A stretch of 60,357 nucleotides of DNA, taken from NCBI GenBank assembly GCA_038063555.1, contig JBBTUX010000008.1:1-60357 (forward strand), given 5' to 3'. A program made the translations under genes and the position numbers. This document shows, piece after piece, positions 3,292-60,357 of the stretch; the stretch's first letter is position 1, and each line of letters starts with the position of its first letter. The notes beneath the pieces are model-generated. The model worked only from the letters and a program-made list of their open reading frames with translations, was not told where the DNA came from and searched no databases. The stretch comes from Patescibacteria group bacterium. GTDB taxonomy: Bacteria; Patescibacteriota; Minisyncoccia; Phycocordibacterales; JAKFXT01.

Positions 3292-3360
3292 TTAAAACTC
3301 CAAACTCCCCTTTTTAGCAAATGATTTAAATCCGTTCAATTCTAGAGATTTTAGATACAT
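3292..3360 (-). pseudogene. ghost 5' fragment of smc (MYLKSLELNGFKSFAKKG then SLEF stop) left upstream of the cassette
   Basis: Own translation from ATG at 3360. The first 18 codons equal the smc N-terminus and the fragment retains the upstream leader module. Confidence 0.7.
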
Positions 3361-3371
3361 CCCATTAGAAA
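3309..3371. repeat. direct repeat copy 2 of the smc 5' end
   Basis: 60/63 identical to 2543-2605. Confidence 0.9.
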
Positions 3372-3579: not shown

Positions 3580-3759
3580 CGAGACGAGGAAAGCGGCGAC
3601 ACAAGAGAAAAAGAAGCGCTGGCAGATTGGGACGAGGTGAACAATAACCGTCTCGAGCAACGCATTATCGCTCGCCACGGTCGCCGTCCCGTAATCGCTT
3701 GATCATCTGTCTTCCTTTTGCAACACCCCCCCCCGCCTCGTGCGGGGGTTTTCGTTTTT
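3580..3759 (+). ncRNA. candidate ~180-nt small RNA of unknown class
   Basis: Sits between the consensus promoter and an intrinsic terminator. GC-rich, contains no ATG, and has internal complementarity (GCGGCGAC/GTCGCCGT, GAGACG/CGTCTC). Confidence 0.5.
3726..3759 (+). terminator. intrinsic terminator
   Basis: CCCCCGC-ctcgt-GCGGGGG followed by TTTTCGTTTTT. Confidence 0.75.
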
Positions 3760-55123: not shown

Positions 55124-56155
55124 TTAAATATTTTTACCACTCACTATCACATGCTCTAGTAATGCATGGGAATATCCCATCTCATTATCATACCAAGCGC
55201 AAACCTTGACTAAATTCCCATCTATAACTCTGGTTAAATTTAAGTCCGCAATTGAGGCAAAGGTGTTCCCCACTATGTCAGATGACACCAATGGCTCATC
55301 CGTTACAGAAAAAACTTTTTGCCACCTCTTTTCCTTTGACGCTTTTTTTAAAGCTTCATTAACCTCTTCTACACTCGTATTTCTTTTAGAAATAAAGGTA
55401 ATGTCTGCAATAGATCCTGCTAGGACTGGCACTCGCATTGAAATACCGTCAAATTTGCCAACTAATTGCGGCAGGGCTTGGGAAAGGGCTATTGCCGCTC
55501 CAGTTGAAGTCGGCACTATATTTCCCGCGGCGGCACGTCCTTCTTTCCAATCTTTCTTTGATGGACTGTCAACGATAGATTGACTGGCGGTATAACCATG
55601 CACGGTTGAAAGTACCGCTTTTTCTATGCCAATCGCTTCATCCAATATTGCAATTAGTGGACTTGCGGCGTTCGTAGTGCAAGATGCATTTGAAGAAATG
55701 GAAGTGTCAGTAAGTAAATTGTCATTTATTCCAAGGAGCACGGTTTCTCCTTTTAACCCATCTGGCGCTTTGTCTTTAACGGGAGCGGTAATAACCACTC
55801 TTTTTGCCCCAACATCCAAATGCGCTTTTGCTTTTTCATAATTAGCAAATCGCCCAGTGGATTCTACAACAATATCAATCCCCAATTTCCCCCAGGGAAG
55901 TTTGCTCGGGTCTTTTTCACTTAAAAATGCGATCTCTTTTCCGTTTACTATTAATTTTCTGTTTTCGCCATTAACTTCTGTTTTTATATCCAAGTCACTT
56001 TTACCATAAACGGTATCGTATTTTAAAAGGTAGGCAAAATTCTCTACCATTCCCAAATCATTTATCGCCACAACTTCAATCCCCTTCTTTTTTATCGCCA
56101 ATTTGAAAAAAGCCCTACCAATTCTTCCAAAACCGTTTATAGCAACCTTCGTCAT
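55124..56155 (-). CDS. gap: glyceraldehyde-3-phosphate dehydrogenase
   Basis: MTKVAINGFGRIGR.., SNASCTTN active site. Confidence 0.92.
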   Translation of the reverse strand: MTKVAINGFGRIGRAFFKLAIKKKGIEVVAINDLGMVENFAYLLKYDTVYGKSDLDIKTEVNGENRKLIVNGKEIAFLSEKDPSKLPWGKLGIDIVVESTGRFANYEKAKAHLDVGAKRVVITAPVKDKAPDGLKGETVLLGINDNLLTDTSISSNASCTTNAASPLIAILDEAIGIEKAVLSTVHGYTASQSIVDSPSKKDWKEGRAAAGNIVPTSTGAAIALSQALPQLVGKFDGISMRVPVLAGSIADITFISKRNTSVEEVNEALKKASKEKRWQKVFSVTDEPLVSSDIVGNTFASIADLNLTRVIDGNLVKVCAWYDNEMGYSHALLEHVIVSGKNI

Positions 56156-56192
56156 TATCTTTATTTATTAATCACTATTTTAATGTTTATTA

Positions 56193-57335
56193 TTATAACA
56201 GATGCTTTCTTAACTTGTACGCATTCCCATGTTTCAACATCCCCAAATATGATTTCATTGTTTCTCGACTTGCCTTGCCATTCATTGCCCTTAGCATCCT
56301 CCTTTTTGTTGTGTTTCTCAACACCCTGTGTCTTGCAAAATTCACCCAACCCAGGAAATCAACGCCTGATGATAATGTTTTGATAAATACTTTGTTGGGG
56401 TGAAGTTGAAGTGAAAGTTCCTTTTCTAGAAAACATACGATATATCGTATGTTTTCTAGAAGTTGATTCTTGTTTTGTGAAAGTATGACAAAATCACCAG
56501 CGTATCTTATGTAATATTTAATCTTTAATTTATGTTTAATGAATTGGTCAAATTCATTCATATAGATATTGACCAGAAGTTGAGAGGTGAGATTACCCAA
56601 GGGCAGTCCTTTCTCTTCTATTCCAATGTTCTCAAGAACATTGGAATAGGTAAGAGGGCTGAAACTACTGAAACTGTTGATTACTCTCTCTAAAAGCCAC
56701 GTTGTGTCTTTATCGGTTATGTGTTTCTTAAGAATGTTCAGCAGTATTTCTTGGTCAATTGAAGCAAAGAATTTTCTGATGTCGCATTTCAAGACAAAGC
56801 ATTGTTTAGTGTTGTTTTTTGATACCTTGTAAGCAAAACTTCTGAAACGATTCATTGCCTTGTGTGTGCCTTTACCTACACGGCAGGAATATGAGTCGTA
56901 AATAAACTTCTGGTCAAAGTAAGGATAAAGAACCCTGTGGATGGCATGGTGGAGTAACCTGTCTCTGACACTGGCCTTGTGTATGTTTCGGGGCTTGGGG
57001 TCGCTAATGTTAAAGGCGCTGTATCCTCCGTGAGTGTATGTTTTGGTTTTGAGGTCGTAGTGTAAAGACAGAATATTGTCCATCAGATTAAGCTGGAATT
57101 CTTGCACGTCTTTTTTGTGTTTTTTGCCGCGTAGAAATTCCTGCCACGCTAATAACAAATTATCAACAGAAATGATATTGTGGTAAGTGTGAACAAATCC
57201 AATTTTCTTTCCGTTAAAGCCCCCCCCCTCATCAGTTTTTGCCTGTTCTCCTGCATTTGAAAGATTGTTACATTTTGTGGTATCAATATTATCAAATACT
57301 ACCCAAGATTCATCGTCATACAATTGGACAGACAA
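56193..57335 (-). CDS. DGR-type reverse transcriptase (atypical YAGD catalytic motif; start uncertain, no in-frame ATG before the conserved core)
   Basis: GLPLGNLTSQLLVNIYMNEFD (DGR-specific motif 4), IRYAGDFVIL (motif 5), N-terminal ..NLLLAWQEF... Confidence 0.85.
   Translation of the reverse strand: MSVQLYDDESWVVFDNIDTTKCNNLSNAGEQAKTDEGGGFNGKKIGFVHTYHNIISVDNLLLAWQEFLRGKKHKKDVQEFQLNLMDNILSLHYDLKTKTYTHGGYSAFNISDPKPRNIHKASVRDRLLHHAIHRVLYPYFDQKFIYDSYSCRVGKGTHKAMNRFRSFAYKVSKNNTKQCFVLKCDIRKFFASIDQEILLNILKKHITDKDTTWLLERVINSFSSFSPLTYSNVLENIGIEEKGLPLGNLTSQLLVNIYMNEFDQFIKHKLKIKYYIRYAGDFVILSQNKNQLLENIRYIVCFLEKELSLQLHPNKVFIKTLSSGVDFLGWVNFARHRVLRNTTKRRMLRAMNGKASRETMKSYLGMLKHGNAYKLRKHLL
56425..56460. 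repeat. perfect 36-nt palindrome inside the RT coding sequence
   Basis: TCTAGAAAACATACGATA|TATCGTATGTTTTCTAGA. The core is identical to 48848-48865. Confidence 0.85.
57220..57228. repeat. homopolymer C9 (G9 on the RT strand)
   Basis: Read directly. Lies in the RT 5' region and 10 nt upstream of the avd start. Confidence 0.9.
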
Positions 57336-57601
57336 CTGATAATTTGTTTATAGAAAGCATAGAAGCAATATCTGTTGCAGGTTTTTTGCAGAAAAGTGAC
57401 AAAATTCCTTTTGTGCGTCTCGCTATCAGAAAAATAGATACCATAAAAATATTTTTGCTTGTACTTTGGGAAACAAAATCTTTGGACAATAAAAAATATA
57501 TATCTCTTTCCGAAAAACTTGACCCGATAGGGCGTATGCTCGGTGGTTGGCTTGGACAACTGCAAAAACAAAACTCCCCCACGAAAGCAGGGGAGAAATG
57601 A
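57239..57601 (+). CDS. avd: DGR accessory variability determinant (Avd), encoded on the strand opposite to RT/TR/target
   Basis: ..LPKIHRHTIGQ.. and C-terminal ..IGRMLGGWLGQLQKQ...KAGEK, resembling Bordetella phage Avd (..IPRKHG.., ..VGRILGSWIARVNRKGQAGK). TTG starts only. Confidence 0.75.
   Translation: MPVLLHLKDCYILWYQYYQILPKIHRHTIGQTTDNLFIESIEAISVAGFLQKSDKIPFVRLAIRKIDTIKIFLLVLWETKSLDNKKYISLSEKLDPIGRMLGGWLGQLQKQNSPTKAGEK
57560..57596 (-). terminator. hairpin plus U-tract immediately 3' of TR (minus strand)
   Basis: Minus strand CTCCCC-tgctttcgtg-GGGGAG followed by TTTTGTTTTT. Overlaps the avd 3' end. Confidence 0.5.
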
Positions 57602-57607
57602 GGAGAA

Positions 57608-57734
57608 TTGCGCGAGAGGCAGCAGGATTGTCACCGTTCCAGTCATTGTCGAGCCAGTTGTAGTTCGACACCACCTTGCCCTCGTTCCAGTAACCATAGC
57701 GTACGTACAGGTTGTCGTTCGTCGGGTTGCGGAA
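57608..57734 (-). repeat. DGR template repeat (TR)
   Basis: 127 nt aligning without gaps to 58073-58199. The only differences are 14 positions that are A in TR (minus strand). Confidence 0.88.
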
Positions 57735-57990
57735 ATGTGCATAATGCCTTCCAGGCCACTGCTAGTAAGGGAGCATATTTACTCAATCCACTAGCTGTAT
57801 CGAATTCCGCATCGTAATGCGATAGCACTATGCACCAAGTATCTTCATTTTTTGAAGTTTCTACACACACCACTCTATCTGAATCCGTGAACACAGATAC
57901 TCTCGATGTATGGATACTGGATTCGGCCGCCGGAAACCTTAATCTCCAGCAGATTCGCCTACTACCATTGTAATGTTATACCAAAATGAA

Positions 57991-58015
57991 AGGCCCCGCG
58001 ATATTTGCGGGGCCT
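57991..58015 (-). terminator. hairpin plus U-tract downstream of the VR and target gene
   Basis: Minus strand AGGCCCCGC-aaatatc-GCGGGGCCT followed by TTCATTTTGG. Confidence 0.6.
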
Positions 58016-58067
58016 AAGGACTAAGTCCCAAGTGCCAAAATAGGCCACAGGAACTGAGTCCACAGTA

Positions 58068-58661
58068 CTAACTTGCGCGAGAGGCAGCAGGACCGCCACC
58101 GTCCCAGTCATCGTCGAGCCAGTCGTAGTTCGACACCACCTCGCCCTCGCTCCAGCAACCACAGCGTACGCACAGGCTGTCGCTCGTCGGGTCGCGGAAG
58201 ATGTCATCCCAGAAGTACACGTAAATCGTGTTACCCTGGTCATTCTTCTTCCAGCTCTCTGGCCAAAGCGCGGGGTTTTCAACGCACTTGTCGAGAACGC
58301 TCGCGCTGACGTTGTCGCCCGCAGCATCTCGTTCCTTGCGGAGATCGTGGCCACCAGCGACTTTGCCGCCCCTCTGATTCTCAGAGAAAACGAGCTCGAG
58401 CCTTGCGTCATCAAGGTAAAGATCGTTGCCGCGCTTCTCGAGCTTCACAATGCCGGACTTGGCCGGGCTCATGCGTTCGGTTCTCTTGAACGGGAGCTTG
58501 CAGGGCACCGAGAAGTCGATCAATACCTCGAGGGCGCTGAGCACGACTCCCTTGAGCCACAACTTGAACTCCTCGAAGCGGGGACGGCCGTTGTTTCCGC
58601 CGACCTGATCCATGAGTTCCGTGAGCGGTCCCTGGAGCTCAGAGACATCAACTTTTTTCAT
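58068..58661 (-). CDS. DGR target protein (197 aa, no signal peptide) with C-terminal variable region
   Basis: Start set at MKKVDVSEL (GGAG 7 nt upstream). The C-terminus FRDPTSDSLCVRCGCWSEGEVVSNYDWLDDDWDGGGPAASRAS corresponds to the TR-encoded FRNPTNDNLYVRYGYWNEGKVVSNYNWLDNDWNGDNPAASRA. Confidence 0.85.
   Translation of the reverse strand: MKKVDVSELQGPLTELMDQVGGNNGRPRFEEFKLWLKGVVLSALEVLIDFSVPCKLPFKRTERMSPAKSGIVKLEKRGNDLYLDDARLELVFSENQRGGKVAGGHDLRKERDAAGDNVSASVLDKCVENPALWPESWKKNDQGNTIYVYFWDDIFRDPTSDSLCVRCGCWSEGEVVSNYDWLDDDWDGGGPAASRAS
58073..58199 (-). repeat. DGR variable repeat (VR)
   Basis: See TR. It ends 5 nt before the target stop codon. Confidence 0.88.
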
Positions 58662-58822
58662 AACAAAACTCCTTATGTTGTGCCAGCGGACCACCGGAAT
58701 GGTAGTCATAGCGAGGAATGGCCTCTATTGTCTTTTTTGTTAAGCCACTTTTCGCTATGACCACCCGCCTGCGCAGGCAGACTCGCAAGTCATATCAAAG
58801 ACCTAATCTATAGTAAAACAAA

Positions 58823-60226
58823 TTAAATCAGTTTTGTCAATATTTCCTTTAAAACCTGCGGGTTGGCACTCCCTTTGGACTTTTTCATGCCTTGACCCAC
58901 TAGAAATTGAATTGAAGATTCTTTGCCAGATTTATACTCTTCAACCGCTTTTCCGTTTTCGGCAATGACTTCTTCGGCAATTTTTTTAAGTAAACCTTCA
59001 TCGCTTTGTTGCAAAAGCCCTTTTTCTTTTGCCAAAATTTCAGGAATGGCATCCTCGTCAAAAAGAAAAGTTAGAAGGTCTTTTGCGCCACGAGAAGAAA
59101 TCTTGTTTTCTGATGTCATTTTTATAAGGTCGGCAAAATTCTTGGTAGAAACGGCAAAATTGCGATTAAAATTTTTCACAAGTCCTGCTAAGTCCGAGGT
59201 AATATAATTTGAAGCAAGCTGAATCAATTTTTTATTTTCTTCCAATTCTCCAGAAACCTCATCAAAAAATTTACCGAACAAATCATTTGTCACATACATT
59301 TCAGCATCTTCTGCTTTTAATCCTTTTTTAATGTATCTTTCTCTTTTTTCCCAAGGTAATTCGGGTAATTCTTTTTTAAGGTTTTCCTTGGAAAATTCCG
59401 TGATTTCAGAAATATAAAGTTTTGGTAAATCTGGGTCTGGAAAATATCTATAATCATGTGAATCTTCTTTAAGACGCTGACTAAAAGTGGTTAAATTATT
59501 TTCATTCCAACCACGAGTTTCTTGAATAACGTTTCCCCCTTCATTCAAAAGTTTGCTCTGTCTTTCTATTTCATAGGCAATTGCGCCCGACACAGCTTTG
59601 AACGAATTTAAATTTTTGACCTCCACCTTTGTTCCTCTTTTTCCTTTAAGCGCAACCGAAATATTGGCTTCCACCCTCATTTGTCCTTTTTCCATATTAG
59701 CTTCTCCCGCCCCAACATAACGTAAAAGAAGTTGTAATTCTTTAGCAAATTTAACTGCGGTTTCCGCATCATGTATTACAGGTTCTGTTACCAACTCCAT
59801 AAGAGGCACGCCAGCGCGATTGTAATCAATTAAACTAATATCTCCTTCGTGTTGGGAACGAGCGGTATCTTCTTCAAGGTGAACACGAGTCAATTCGACT
59901 CCATCTATTTCCCCACCTAAAACAAGGGGGTGTTTATATTGACTTATTTGATAACCCTTCGGAATATCTGGATAAAAATAATTTTTTCTATCAAATTCAG
60001 TGAAATCCGCCAGTTTACCTTTGACAGCTATGCCAATTTTTAAAACATTTTTTATAGCTTGTTTATTAATTACAGGAAGTGTCCCGGGGTGCGCCATGCA
60101 AATGGGGCAAATATTTTTGTTCGGAGTTTTTTCATCAGGATCATTCTTACAGGAGCAAAACATTTTCGTGTTTGTCTTTAACTCCGCATGCACTTCTAAG
60201 CCGATGGTGGGAATGTATTTGGACAT
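58823..60226 (-). CDS. gatB: Asp/Glu-tRNA amidotransferase subunit B
   Basis: ..IGLEVHAEL.T.TKMFCSC.., 467 aa with a C-terminal YqeY-like tail. Confidence 0.9.
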   Translation of the reverse strand: MSKYIPTIGLEVHAELKTNTKMFCSCKNDPDEKTPNKNICPICMAHPGTLPVINKQAIKNVLKIGIAVKGKLADFTEFDRKNYFYPDIPKGYQISQYKHPLVLGGEIDGVELTRVHLEEDTARSQHEGDISLIDYNRAGVPLMELVTEPVIHDAETAVKFAKELQLLLRYVGAGEANMEKGQMRVEANISVALKGKRGTKVEVKNLNSFKAVSGAIAYEIERQSKLLNEGGNVIQETRGWNENNLTTFSQRLKEDSHDYRYFPDPDLPKLYISEITEFSKENLKKELPELPWEKRERYIKKGLKAEDAEMYVTNDLFGKFFDEVSGELEENKKLIQLASNYITSDLAGLVKNFNRNFAVSTKNFADLIKMTSENKISSRGAKDLLTFLFDEDAIPEILAKEKGLLQQSDEGLLKKIAEEVIAENGKAVEEYKSGKESSIQFLVGQGMKKSKGSANPQVLKEILTKLI

Positions 60227-60234
60227 GGTAATGA

Positions 60235-60357
60235 TTATAGAGAAATTACTGATAAAGGGAAATCTCTATATTCTTTTTTTAGTTTGTGTGTATTCCCCCA
60301 CCTCAACATCCCTAAATATGATTGTCTGGTATCTTCTTTCGGATTATTCTCTAGATT
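60235..60357 (-). CDS. 3' end of a second DGR-type reverse transcriptase gene (continues off the right edge)
   Basis: Own translation: ..NLENNPKEDTRQSYLGMLRWGNTHKLKKEYRDFPLSVISL stop. Compare the first RT C-terminus ..RETMKSYLGMLKHGNAYKLRKHLL. There is nucleotide similarity to 56193-56290. Confidence 0.6.
   Translation of the reverse strand, partial: NLENNPKEDTRQSYLGMLRWGNTHKLKKEYRDFPLSVISL

What the first reader, a model, noticed from the sequence alone, without database searches (positions are those of the whole stretch)
57608..58199. All 14 TR/VR mismatches are A->G; no other substitution type
The alignment has no gaps at a fixed offset of 465 nt. On the coding (minus) strand, 14 of the 33 TR adenines differ in the VR, and every one is G in the VR. 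The resulting changes are N->D four times, N->S three times, Y->C three times, K->E, D->G and N->G. No non-adenine position differs. Adenine specificity is the DGR hallmark, but canonical DGR mutagenesis yields all three alternative bases. If replacements were unbiased, 14 of 14 being G would have probability (1/3)^14. This could reflect an RT with a strongly biased misincorporation spectrum (C opposite template A). It could reflect selection on this particular VR allele. It could also reflect an adenosine-deamination-like route rather than polymerase infidelity.
Basis: seen in the sequence. Interest (0 to 1): 0.75.

Follow-up and report, generated by a model that had tools for sequence, protein, structure and literature searches.

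The report
DGR variable region with only A-to-G changes
This is a genuine diversity-generating retroelement in a Patescibacteria genome whose one fixed variable-region allele differs from its template only by A-to-G changes, which is a rare outcome of a known mechanism and not evidence of a new one.

Summary
TR 57608-57734 and VR 58073-58199 align without gaps at an offset of 465 nt. All 14 mismatches are TR-A to VR-G on the minus strand, out of 33 TR adenines.

The (1/3)^14 null is wrong. In 16 related TR/VR pairs A>G makes up 62% of adenine substitutions, and 74% at second codon positions. Published work on the prototype bRT in E. coli gives 59%. A realistic P(14/14) is about 1e-3 to 2e-3. 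The allele is still an outlier, because none of 84 other pairs (16 family, 68 viral) is all-G.

A sister DGR cassette in the same genome, with an RT 81% identical at the nucleotide level, shows G7/T10/C2. That argues against a cell-wide deaminase or dNTP effect.

The adjacent RT has YAGD where all 132 relatives have xDD, and two independent assemblies show this. It is probably catalytically dead. The VR allele is identical in 7 contigs from at least 6 samples and is the most acidic of 53 family VRs.

Best reading: one frozen, probably selected product of canonical, G-biased DGR mutagenesis. Read-level spectra are still needed.

Side findings are a conserved poly-G tract at the RT start, a covarying TR-RNA scaffold and a GC-rich target gene.

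The parts
58068..58661 (-). DGR target gene, 197 aa. The true start is the ATG at 58661, preceded by AAGGAG; the 213-aa ORF from 58709 is an over-extension. The VR is the last ~42 codons. GC is ~58% against ~35% in the neighbours.
   Evidence: 71 homologues, all Patescibacteria or unnamed metagenome proteins. (composition). No Pfam hit. AlphaFold2 pLDDT 85, with no PDB fold match better than E = 0.8.
58073..58199 (-). Variable region (VR). It has 14 G where the TR has A.
58018..58061 (-). Inverted repeat (hairpin) immediately downstream of the VR and the stop codon. It is the candidate target-site hairpin.
   Evidence: DNA fold -21.6 kcal/mol together with the terminator, z = -5.2. The same position is an inverted repeat in relatives (first alignment block).
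57991..58015 (-). Intrinsic terminator-like hairpin of the target gene, followed by a T-run.
57735..57982 (-). Promoter-like -10 box (TATAAC at 57980-57975; TAAAAT in relatives) followed by a ~230-nt conserved, structured 5' domain of the TR RNA. It includes AAAUGAAGA (57850-57842), which pairs with 57604-57596 to close the TR into a loop.
   Evidence: 84 predicted pairs, 46 with compensatory changes in 15 sequences; closing helix 93% paired, 3 pairs covary, 0/500 shuffles reach the covariation score.
57608..57734 (-). Template repeat (TR) with 33 adenines, mostly in AAC, TAC or GAC codon-like triplets. The last 19 nt (57626-57608, CCTGCTGCCTCTCGCGCAA) are identical to the VR and GC-rich, as an IMH would be.
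57574..57604 (-). 3' end of the TR RNA. UCCUCAUUU (57604-57596) is the 3' half of the closing helix and has one A.C mismatch in this window. The terminator hairpin is at 57595-57574, followed by UUUUGUUUUU. This element lies inside the 3' end of avd on the other strand.
57239..57601 (+). avd accessory gene (120 aa). It is inverted relative to the target, TR and RT.
   Evidence: PF22296 bAvd, E = 1e-8, 36 bits, just below the 40-bit cut-off. (inverted Avd homologues, 47-68% identical, in all related cassettes).
57220..57228 (-). G9 homopolymer (C9 on +) between the avd start and the conserved N-terminus of the RT.
56193..57335 (-). DGR reverse transcriptase RT1; the start codon is uncertain. 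It has KPR (bRT R74 equivalent) and LGNLTSQ, but the catalytic box reads YAGD. The Gly codon GGT is at 56496-56498.
   Evidence: (bRT 8ub7, E = 5e-34).
60235..60357 (-). C-terminal 40 codons of RT2, the RT of a second paralogous DGR cassette that continues beyond the window end.

Best explanation
This is a canonical diversity-generating retroelement of the large Patescibacteria (CPR) clade, and it sits on the minus strand.

How it is built. A small structured RNA is transcribed on its own. It consists of a promoter, a ~230-nt scaffold, the 127-nt TR and a terminator hairpin. The RT-Avd complex reverse-transcribes this RNA with misincorporation opposite adenines, and the cDNA replaces the last 42 codons of the 197-aa target gene.

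What the 14 differences are. They are the footprint of the last retrohoming event, or events, that became fixed in this population. They are all A>G for three reasons.
(i) dC misincorporation opposite A is the dominant error in this DGR family, and nearly the only one at second codon positions.
(ii) The remaining surprise, six first-position changes that are all G, is the extreme tail of that spectrum. Selection probably helped, because these changes give Asp, Glu or Gly and make the most acidic and least aromatic VR in the family.
(iii) We see one frozen allele, not the mutational spectrum. The adjacent RT has since lost its first catalytic aspartate (YADD>YAGD), and the allele is invariant across samples.

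Shown: the anatomy, the adenine specificity, the family bias, the YAGD substitution and the allele invariance.
Inferred: that a single cDNA event produced the allele, that selection favoured it, and that the RT is inactive.
For: - Anatomy.
- Family spectrum from 16 independent homologous TR/VR pairs: A>G 152, A>T 55, A>C 38 (pG = 0.62). There is no significant heterogeneity (chi-square p = 0.29).
- By codon position: position 1 is G 46%, C 31%, T 23%; position 2 is G 74%, T 21%, C 4%.
- P(14/14 G) is 1.25e-3 pooled, 9e-4 codon-position specific and 2.1e-3 beta-binomial.
- Literature: bRT in E. coli gives dC 59.3%, dG 26.4% and dA 14.3% of errors, with strong dependence on context (PMC12875486; bioRxiv 10.1101/2025.03.24.644984).
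- Sister cassette in the same genome (RT2 81% nt identical, intact YADD): A>G 7, A>T 10, A>C 2. This argues against a cell-wide cause.
- TR adenines are conserved in all homologous TRs while the VRs differ, so the VR is the derived copy.
- The VR allele is 100% identical at the nucleotide level in the window and 6 other contigs from other runs. No VR variant exists in its 90% protein cluster.
- The VR has net charge -6. It is the lowest of 53 family VRs, which have mean +0.3 and sd 2.6.
- RT1 has YAGD. The other 13 family RTs and 119 of the other 119 closest homologues have xDD. An independent replicate assembly reproduces it.
Against: - Even with the family's bias the outcome has P of about 1e-3. 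None of 84 other TR/VR pairs (16 family, 68 viral with at least 10 substitutions) is all-G; the maximum is 12/14. Chance alone is therefore a weak explanation, and the selection component is untested.
- VR2 of the sister cassette, whose RT is intact, is equally invariant across samples. Allele invariance therefore does not specifically show that RT1's defect froze VR1.
- The effect of D>G in the YADD box is inferred from other RTs. It was not measured here.
- Natural VRs confound the mutational spectrum with selection, so the family 'spectrum' is not purely enzymatic.
Confidence: 0.6

Rival explanations
1. RT1 itself has, or had, a transition-only misincorporation spectrum in which only dC goes in opposite template A. 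This might be linked to its altered active site (YAGD), so the all-G pattern would be enzymatic rather than sampled or selected.
For: - This is the only all-G pair among 85, and it sits next to the only RT among 133 with a changed catalytic box.
- bRT active-site mutants R74A and I181N change misincorporation frequency (PMC7826257), so active-site changes can tune the spectrum.
- The fraction of adenines mutated (42%) is at the low end of the family range of 27-68%.
Against: - From established knowledge of retroviral and group II intron RTs, the first Asp of YxDD is a metal ligand, and its loss normally abolishes polymerisation rather than retuning fidelity.
- The number of G substitutions (14) is as high as in relatives with intact RTs. 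A crippled enzyme would be expected to give fewer.
- The closest paralogue, RT2, gives all three bases.
Confidence: 0.12
2. Assembly artefact. The population carries many VR alleles and the assembler followed the most abundant k-mers. The result is a majority-path sequence that carries only A (unmutated) or G (the commonest substitution) at each site.
For: - G is the commonest substitution in the family.
- Several contigs break just downstream of the target gene, between VR and TR, as expected near repeats or microdiversity.
- Coverage is only 9-14x according to the contig names.
Against: - The identical 127-nt VR was assembled in the window and 6 other contigs from at least 6 runs by at least two pipelines.
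- With 9-14x coverage, a hyperdiverse VR would fragment rather than assemble cleanly.
- WIN has G at sites where relatives mostly keep A or take C, for example alignment columns 107 and 89. A majority path would not do that.
Confidence: 0.07
3. An adenosine-deamination route. A-to-I editing of the TR RNA, or deamination of DNA adenines, followed by faithful copying, would give only A>G.
For: Only the pattern itself, which is exclusively A>G at adenines.
Against: - The sister cassette in the same cell shows A>T as its commonest change.
- All 16 homologous cassettes show T and C substitutions.
- RT1-lineage substitutions show no A>G excess: 8/28, against 7/39 in the RT2 lineage.
- No H/C-A-E...PCxxC deaminase motif occurs in any frame of the window (a regex only).
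- No deaminase was found among the annotated neighbours within +-10 kb.
Confidence: 0.03
4. The TR is a decaying pseudocopy of the VR that has accumulated G>A changes under AT mutation pressure. On this reading the pair is not a functional template.
For: The host genome is AT-rich, at about 35% GC.
Against: - The adenines at these positions are conserved in 16 homologous TRs from different hosts, while the VRs vary.
- There are 0 C>T changes against 14 G>A, and no change outside adenine sites.
- The TR is embedded in a covarying structured RNA with its own promoter-like box and terminator.
Confidence: 0.01

Closest known systems
Bordetella phage BPP-1 DGR (bRT-Avd, TR, mtd VR)
   Same: - The RT is the best PDB match (8ub7, E = 5e-34) and has the DGR signature LGxxxSQ and the R74 equivalent.
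- There is an Avd four-helix accessory protein.
- Only adenines differ between TR and VR, and they sit in AAC-type codons at the C-terminus of the target.
- The 3' end of the repeat is GC-rich and identical in both copies, and a hairpin follows the VR.
- The TR is flanked by structured RNA.
- dC misincorporation (A>G) is the main error of bRT in vivo (PMC12875486).
   Different: - avd is inverted and lies between the TR and the RT.
- The conserved RNA scaffold is mostly 5' of the TR. Only ~45 nt follow the TR before a terminator. In BPP-1, as I recall it, the TR is flanked by avd sequence upstream and a spacer downstream.
- In this family, NAC-context adenines go to G (77%) and almost never to C (3%). 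bRT shows raised A>C in NAC contexts.
- The target protein has no detectable Mtd or CLec match.
- The RT here has YAGD.
Patescibacteria/CPR DGRs (the 'CPR set' of Wu et al. 2018, PMC5758913; DGR clade 2 of Roux et al. 2021, PMC8144416)
   Same: - The host context matches: gatB, gap, rpiB and other small-genome Patescibacteria genes, with homologues named Paceibacterota, Nomurabacteria, Zambryskibacteria and similar.
- The RT has nearly 8000 homologues at E <= 1e-60 (7996 of the 8000 candidates scored).
- The target is a small protein of unknown family.
   Different: - I did not place the RT on the published trees, so clade membership is inferred from hosts and similarity.
- This locus is tandemly duplicated, with two cassettes flanking gatB.
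- One RT carries a catalytic-box substitution.
- I did not find the poly-G tract or the 5' RNA scaffold mentioned in the papers I searched.
Homopolymeric-tract phase variation (for example poly-G tracts in Neisseria and Campylobacter genes)
   Same: - A G7-G11 run lies at or in the 5' end of the RT reading frame in AT-rich genomes.
- Its length differs between loci and, once, within this population (G8 against G9).
- In several loci the nearest start codon is out of frame by one or two bases.
   Different: - No switching was demonstrated.
- The tract could equally be an RNA or promoter element shared by the divergent avd and RT genes.
- It concerns a side observation, not the A>G finding.

Membership tests
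Diversity-generating retroelement (DGR) | A reverse transcriptase of the DGR clade, with the [I/V/L]GxxxSQ motif in place of QGxxxSP | tested here: met
   LGNLTSQ is present. The best solved-structure match is bRT 8ub7, E = 5e-34. Pfam RVT_1 E = 5.5e-24.
Diversity-generating retroelement (DGR) | A TR/VR repeat pair whose mismatches fall on TR adenines | tested here: met
   14 of 14 mismatches are at TR adenines and 0 of 94 other positions differ.
Diversity-generating retroelement (DGR) | VR inside a protein-coding target, typically at the C-terminus, with adenines at codon positions 1 and 2 | tested here: met
   The VR is the last 42 codons of a 197-aa ORF. TR adenines fall 12 at position 1, 19 at position 2 and 2 at position 3.
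Diversity-generating retroelement (DGR) | An accessory variability determinant (Avd) next to the RT | tested here: met
   PF22296 bAvd, E = 1e-8, which is 36 bits against a 40-bit cut-off. Full-length homologues occur in all related cassettes. It is inverted relative to the RT.
Diversity-generating retroelement (DGR) | A catalytically competent RT with an intact YxDD box | tested here: not met
   The box is YAGD (GGT at 56496-56498) in two independent assemblies. The other 13 family RTs and 119 of the other 119 closest homologues have xDD. The cassette is therefore DGR-derived but probably not currently autonomous. RT2 nearby is intact.
Diversity-generating retroelement (DGR) | An IMH-like GC-rich 3' end of the VR and a hairpin downstream of the VR | tested here: inconclusive
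   The 19-nt GC-rich 3' end is identical in TR and VR, so no IMH/IMH* difference lies inside the repeat. A hairpin lies 7-50 nt downstream of the stop codon. Function was not tested.
Diversity-generating retroelement (DGR) | Ongoing diversification, meaning VR polymorphism in the population | tested here: not met
   At the assembly level, the VR is identical in the window and 6 other contigs and the 90% protein cluster holds no variant. Read-level minority variants cannot be tested with these tools.
Diversity-generating retroelement (DGR) | A target with a C-type lectin or Ig fold that displays the VR | tested here: inconclusive
   The model is confident (pLDDT 85). The best PDB Foldseek E-value is 0.84, and C-type lectin hits appear only at E ~3 with TM ~0.25.
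Adenosine deaminase-driven editing (ADAR/TadA-like) | A deaminase gene in the neighbourhood and A>G changes that do not depend on the RT template logic | tested here: not met
   No CDA-fold zinc motif occurs in the window (regex only). None was found among the annotated neighbours. Sister and related cassettes show A>T and A>C. The RT1 lineage shows no A>G excess.

The most novel reading that the evidence does not exclude
The RT of this cassette, the only one of 133 relatives with YAGD instead of YADD, is or was still active but restricted to dC misincorporation opposite adenine. That would make it a natural 'transition-only' DGR that explores just Asn>Asp/Ser/Gly, Tyr>Cys and Lys>Glu. Its expression would be gated by the conserved poly-G tract at its 5' end. 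On this reading the all-G VR would be the enzyme's signature and not a sampled allele.
Probability: 0.08. Interest if true: 0.7.

Novelty: new member of a known kind. Interest (0 to 1): 0.35.

Why it matters
If the all-G pattern were enzymatic, it would show that the DGR mutational spectrum can be narrowed by a natural active-site change. That would be useful for programmable mutagenesis tools built on bRT.

As the evidence stands, the locus mainly shows three things. A single TR/VR pair is one allele and not a spectrum. A>G is the expected majority class. DGR cassettes can be silenced by a catalytic-box mutation, leaving a fixed variable-protein allele.

The side observations may be of more lasting interest for understanding how the very large CPR DGR clade is built and regulated. 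They are a conserved poly-G tract at the RT start, a covarying TR-RNA scaffold with a helix that closes the TR, an inverted avd and a persistently GC-rich target gene.

Tried and rejected
- I searched the window for further VR copies and found none.
- An Rfam scan of 55500-60357 at E <= 1 gave only chance-level miRNA and sRNA hits.
- Pfam gave no hit for the target protein.
- Two exact-protein look-ups of RT1 failed. I replaced them with a homology search and a look-up through the neighbouring gap gene.
- I looked for population variants of VR1 and VR2 through 90% clusters and exact look-ups. Both alleles are invariant. The only variant of target 2 differs at one residue outside the VR. This gives no spectrum information. 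It also means invariance does not discriminate between the dead and the intact RT.
- I tested for a local A>G mutational process in the RT1 lineage by parsimony with 9 outgroups. There is none.
- I checked whether the second C9 run in the window (3726-3734) marks another DGR. It does not; it is part of an intergenic hairpin downstream of the RNase III gene.
- The poly-G tract is not general to DGR RTs. It is absent from 21 of 22 viral-contig relatives examined.

Full report
**1. The observation**

On the + strand, window 57608-57734 and 58073-58199 align over 127 nt without gaps at an offset of 465. All 14 mismatches are T in the first copy and C in the second. On the minus strand this means 14 of the 33 adenines of the first copy are G in the second. 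None of the 94 non-adenine positions differs, and similarity stops sharply at both ends.

The second copy is the last 42 codons of a minus-strand ORF.

**2. What is there**

Read 5'>3' on the minus strand, the locus contains the following parts.

- **Target gene.** It is 197 aa, with its ATG at 58661 behind an AAGGAG box. It has no Pfam domain. It has 71 homologues, all from Patescibacteria or unnamed metagenome contigs.
- **Hairpin and terminator.** A hairpin lies at 58061-58018, followed by a terminator-like hairpin with a T-run at 58015-57991.
- **TR RNA 5' domain.** A -10-like box (TATAAC here, TAAAAT in relatives) is followed by a ~230-nt segment that is conserved in 14 related cassettes (15 aligned rows counting the window's own). 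It folds into stems with abundant compensatory changes: 46 of 84 predicted pairs.
- **TR.** It occupies 57734-57608.
- **TR RNA 3' end.** A short 3' segment pairs back to AAAUGAAGA upstream of the TR. This helix is 93% paired, three of its pairs covary, and no shuffle reaches the observed covariation score. A second terminator hairpin lies at 57595-57574.
- **avd.** The gene lies on the opposite strand at 57239-57601 (bAvd, E = 1e-8).
- **G9 run.** It lies at 57228-57220.
- **RT.** It runs from 57335 to 56193. Its best solved-structure relative is the Bordetella phage bRT (8ub7, E = 5e-34). It carries the DGR signature LGNLTSQ and the equivalent of bRT R74.

The promoter-like box, the two terminators and the covarying scaffold all lie on the minus strand. 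The TR RNA is therefore minus-sense, and the changes are indeed A>G and not U>C. This addresses the one ambiguity raised by the inverted avd. The same order, with inverted avd, is found in every related cassette.

The contig continues beyond the window (L042, a 202-kb Hainich groundwater contig). There it holds a second, paralogous cassette (target 2, TR2, inverted avd2, RT2) directly upstream of gatB. Its last 40 RT codons are window 60235-60357.

**3. How surprising is 14 of 14?**

That null is not appropriate.

I recovered 16 independent homologous TR/VR pairs from genome and metagenome contigs. Pooled, they give A>G 152, A>T 55 and A>C 38, so pG = 0.62. There is no significant heterogeneity between pairs (p = 0.29). 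By codon position, first-position adenines give G 46%, C 31% and T 23%. Second-position adenines give G 74%, T 21% and C 4%.

Published data agree on the direction. In E. coli the prototype bRT makes 59.3% dC, 26.4% dG and 14.3% dA errors opposite A, with strong dependence on context (PMC12875486). A second study also reports context-determined A>G bias (10.1101/2025.03.24.644984). In vitro the order is dA > dC > dG (PMC7826257).

With these nulls, P(14/14 G) is:

- 1.25e-3 pooled
- 9e-4 codon-position specific
- 2.1e-3 beta-binomial

Most of the surprise comes from the six first-position changes.

As a broader background I extracted 71 TR/VR pairs from viral contigs whose RTs are 30-60% identical. 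They give G 46%, T 33% and C 21%. None of the 68 pairs with at least 10 adenine substitutions is all-G, and the maximum is 12 of 14.

The window's pair is therefore a genuine outlier, 1 in 85 empirically and about 1e-3 by model. With tens of thousands of DGRs catalogued, such pairs are expected to exist.

**4. Tests of the proposed causes**

*Decayed pseudocopy.* This is rejected. The adenines are conserved in all 16 homologous TRs while the VRs differ. There are no C>T changes. The TR sits in a conserved structured RNA.

*Cell-wide cause such as a deaminase or dNTP pools.* This is not supported. The sister cassette in the same genome has an RT that is 81% identical at the nucleotide level and has an intact YADD. 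It shows A>G 7, A>T 10 and A>C 2. RT1-lineage substitutions show no A>G excess, at 8/28 against 7/39 for the RT2 lineage. No deaminase-type zinc motif occurs in the window.

*RT-intrinsic spectrum.* This cannot be tested directly, but the RT turned out to be abnormal. Its catalytic box reads YAGD, with GGT at 56496-56498, where RT2 has GAT. The other 13 RTs of the family alignment and all 119 other closest database homologues have xDD. An independent replicate assembly, L133, also has YAGD. In retroviral and group II intron RTs the first aspartate of YxDD is a metal ligand; this rests on established knowledge and was not tested here. RT1 is therefore most likely inactive.

*Selection on the allele.* This is plausible. 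The VR is the most acidic (net -6) and least aromatic of 53 family VRs, which have mean +0.3 and sd 2.6. At AAC and AAG codons, Asp and Glu are reachable only through A>G. The same 127-nt allele, identical at every base, occurs in six further contigs from other runs and pipelines. No variant exists in its 90% cluster among 15 billion proteins.

One caveat applies. VR2 of the intact sister cassette is just as invariant. Invariance therefore shows a clonal, quiet population. It does not specifically show a consequence of RT1's defect.

**5. Conclusion on mechanism**

The best-supported reading has a confidence of about 0.6. The VR is one fixed product of canonical, G-biased DGR mutagenesis. It sits at the extreme of the family's spectrum and has probably been retained by selection for an acidic, small-residue binding surface. 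It now lies next to an RT that has lost a catalytic residue.

The rivals, with my probabilities, are:

- an RT1-specific transition-only spectrum, 0.12
- a majority-path assembly artefact, 0.07
- deamination, 0.03
- a pseudocopy TR, 0.01

Read-level base spectra and a cDNA assay would decide between them.

**6. Comparison with what is known**

The cassette works like the BPP-1 DGR, and by sequence it belongs to the large CPR DGR group (PMC5758913, PMC8144416). It meets the membership features for RT type, adenine-specific TR/VR, C-terminal VR and Avd. It fails the features 'intact YxDD' and 'observable diversification'.

It differs from BPP-1 in four ways:

- avd is inverted.
- The RNA scaffold lies mainly 5' of the TR, and a helix closes the TR into a loop.
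- A>C is nearly absent in NAC contexts, at 3% in natural VRs, whereas bRT shows raised A>C there.
- The target fold cannot be recognised.

**7. Novelty and score**

For the finding as given, this is a new member of a known kind. It is a real, statistically unusual allele, but it is not evidence for a new mutagenic route. I score interest at 0.35.

The side observations may merit their own follow-up. They are the conserved poly-G tract, the TR-RNA structure, the GC-rich target gene, the tandem cassettes and the RT1/RT2 mosaic contig.

Noticed in passing
window 57220-57228 (C9 on +, G9 on the RT strand); related loci L002, L005, L008, L012-L014, L016, L017, L019, L027, L032, L034, L042 and L051: A G7-G11 homopolymer sits between the divergent avd start and the conserved RT N-terminus in nearly all cassettes of this clade, in genomes of 35-46% GC. 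The whole 60-kb window has only two G/C runs of 7 or more. The length differs between loci and once within this population: G8 in L044 against G9 in the window, L043 and L048. In several loci the only nearby GTG or TTG start is out of frame by 1-2 nt, or no in-frame start exists. L013 (G10) and L019 (G7) keep the frame. 35 of the 60 RT homologues in which the conserved N-terminal motif could be located carry GG, GGG or GGGG at this spot. This may be a slipped-strand on/off switch for the RT, and perhaps for avd. No paper I searched mentions it.
   Followed up: partly
window 56496-56498 (minus strand): The RT catalytic box is YAGD (GGT) instead of YADD (GAT). It is unique among 133 relatives and is reproduced in an independent replicate assembly (L133).
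   Followed up: yes
window 57565-57982 (minus strand); alignment A2: A conserved structured RNA surrounds the TR. It has several covarying stems 5' of the TR, a long stem ending just before the first TR base, and a 9-bp helix (57850-57842 with 57604-57596) that encloses the TR, with a terminator right after it. In this window the closing helix has one A.C mismatch. There is no Rfam family for it.
   Followed up: partly
window 58068-58661; target genes in L001, L005, L008, L010, L012-L014, L016, L027, L032 and L039: The whole target gene, not just the VR, is GC-rich (GC 0.50-0.62, GC3 0.56-0.86) in hosts of 35-46% GC, while RT and avd match the host. Both A and T are depleted, so this is not an adenine-specific effect. 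It is conserved across hosts and remains unexplained.
   Followed up: partly
L042:5900-8427 (beyond the window end; RT2 C-terminus = window 60235-60357): A second, complete paralogous DGR cassette sits immediately upstream of gatB, so two cassettes flank one housekeeping gene. Its parts are a different 215-aa target, TR2/VR2 of 118 nt with G7/T10/C2 plus one non-A change, an inverted avd2, a G9 tract in frame with a TTG start, and RT2 with an intact YADD.
   Followed up: yes
L133:240-420 (Hainich H41 R2 assembly): A contig carrying RT1 contains an internal tract of ~150-180 nt identical to RT2, flanked by pure RT1 sequence. This is either gene conversion between the two RT paralogues in a subpopulation or a de Bruijn path switch through shared k-mers.
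   Followed up: partly
window 3300-3370 (minus strand): The intergenic sequence repeats the first ~17 codons of the SMC-like gene that starts at 2594 (MYLKSLELNGFKSFAKK), so it is a short partial duplication. The window's other G9 run (3726-3734) is part of a hairpin downstream of the RNase III gene.
   Followed up: no
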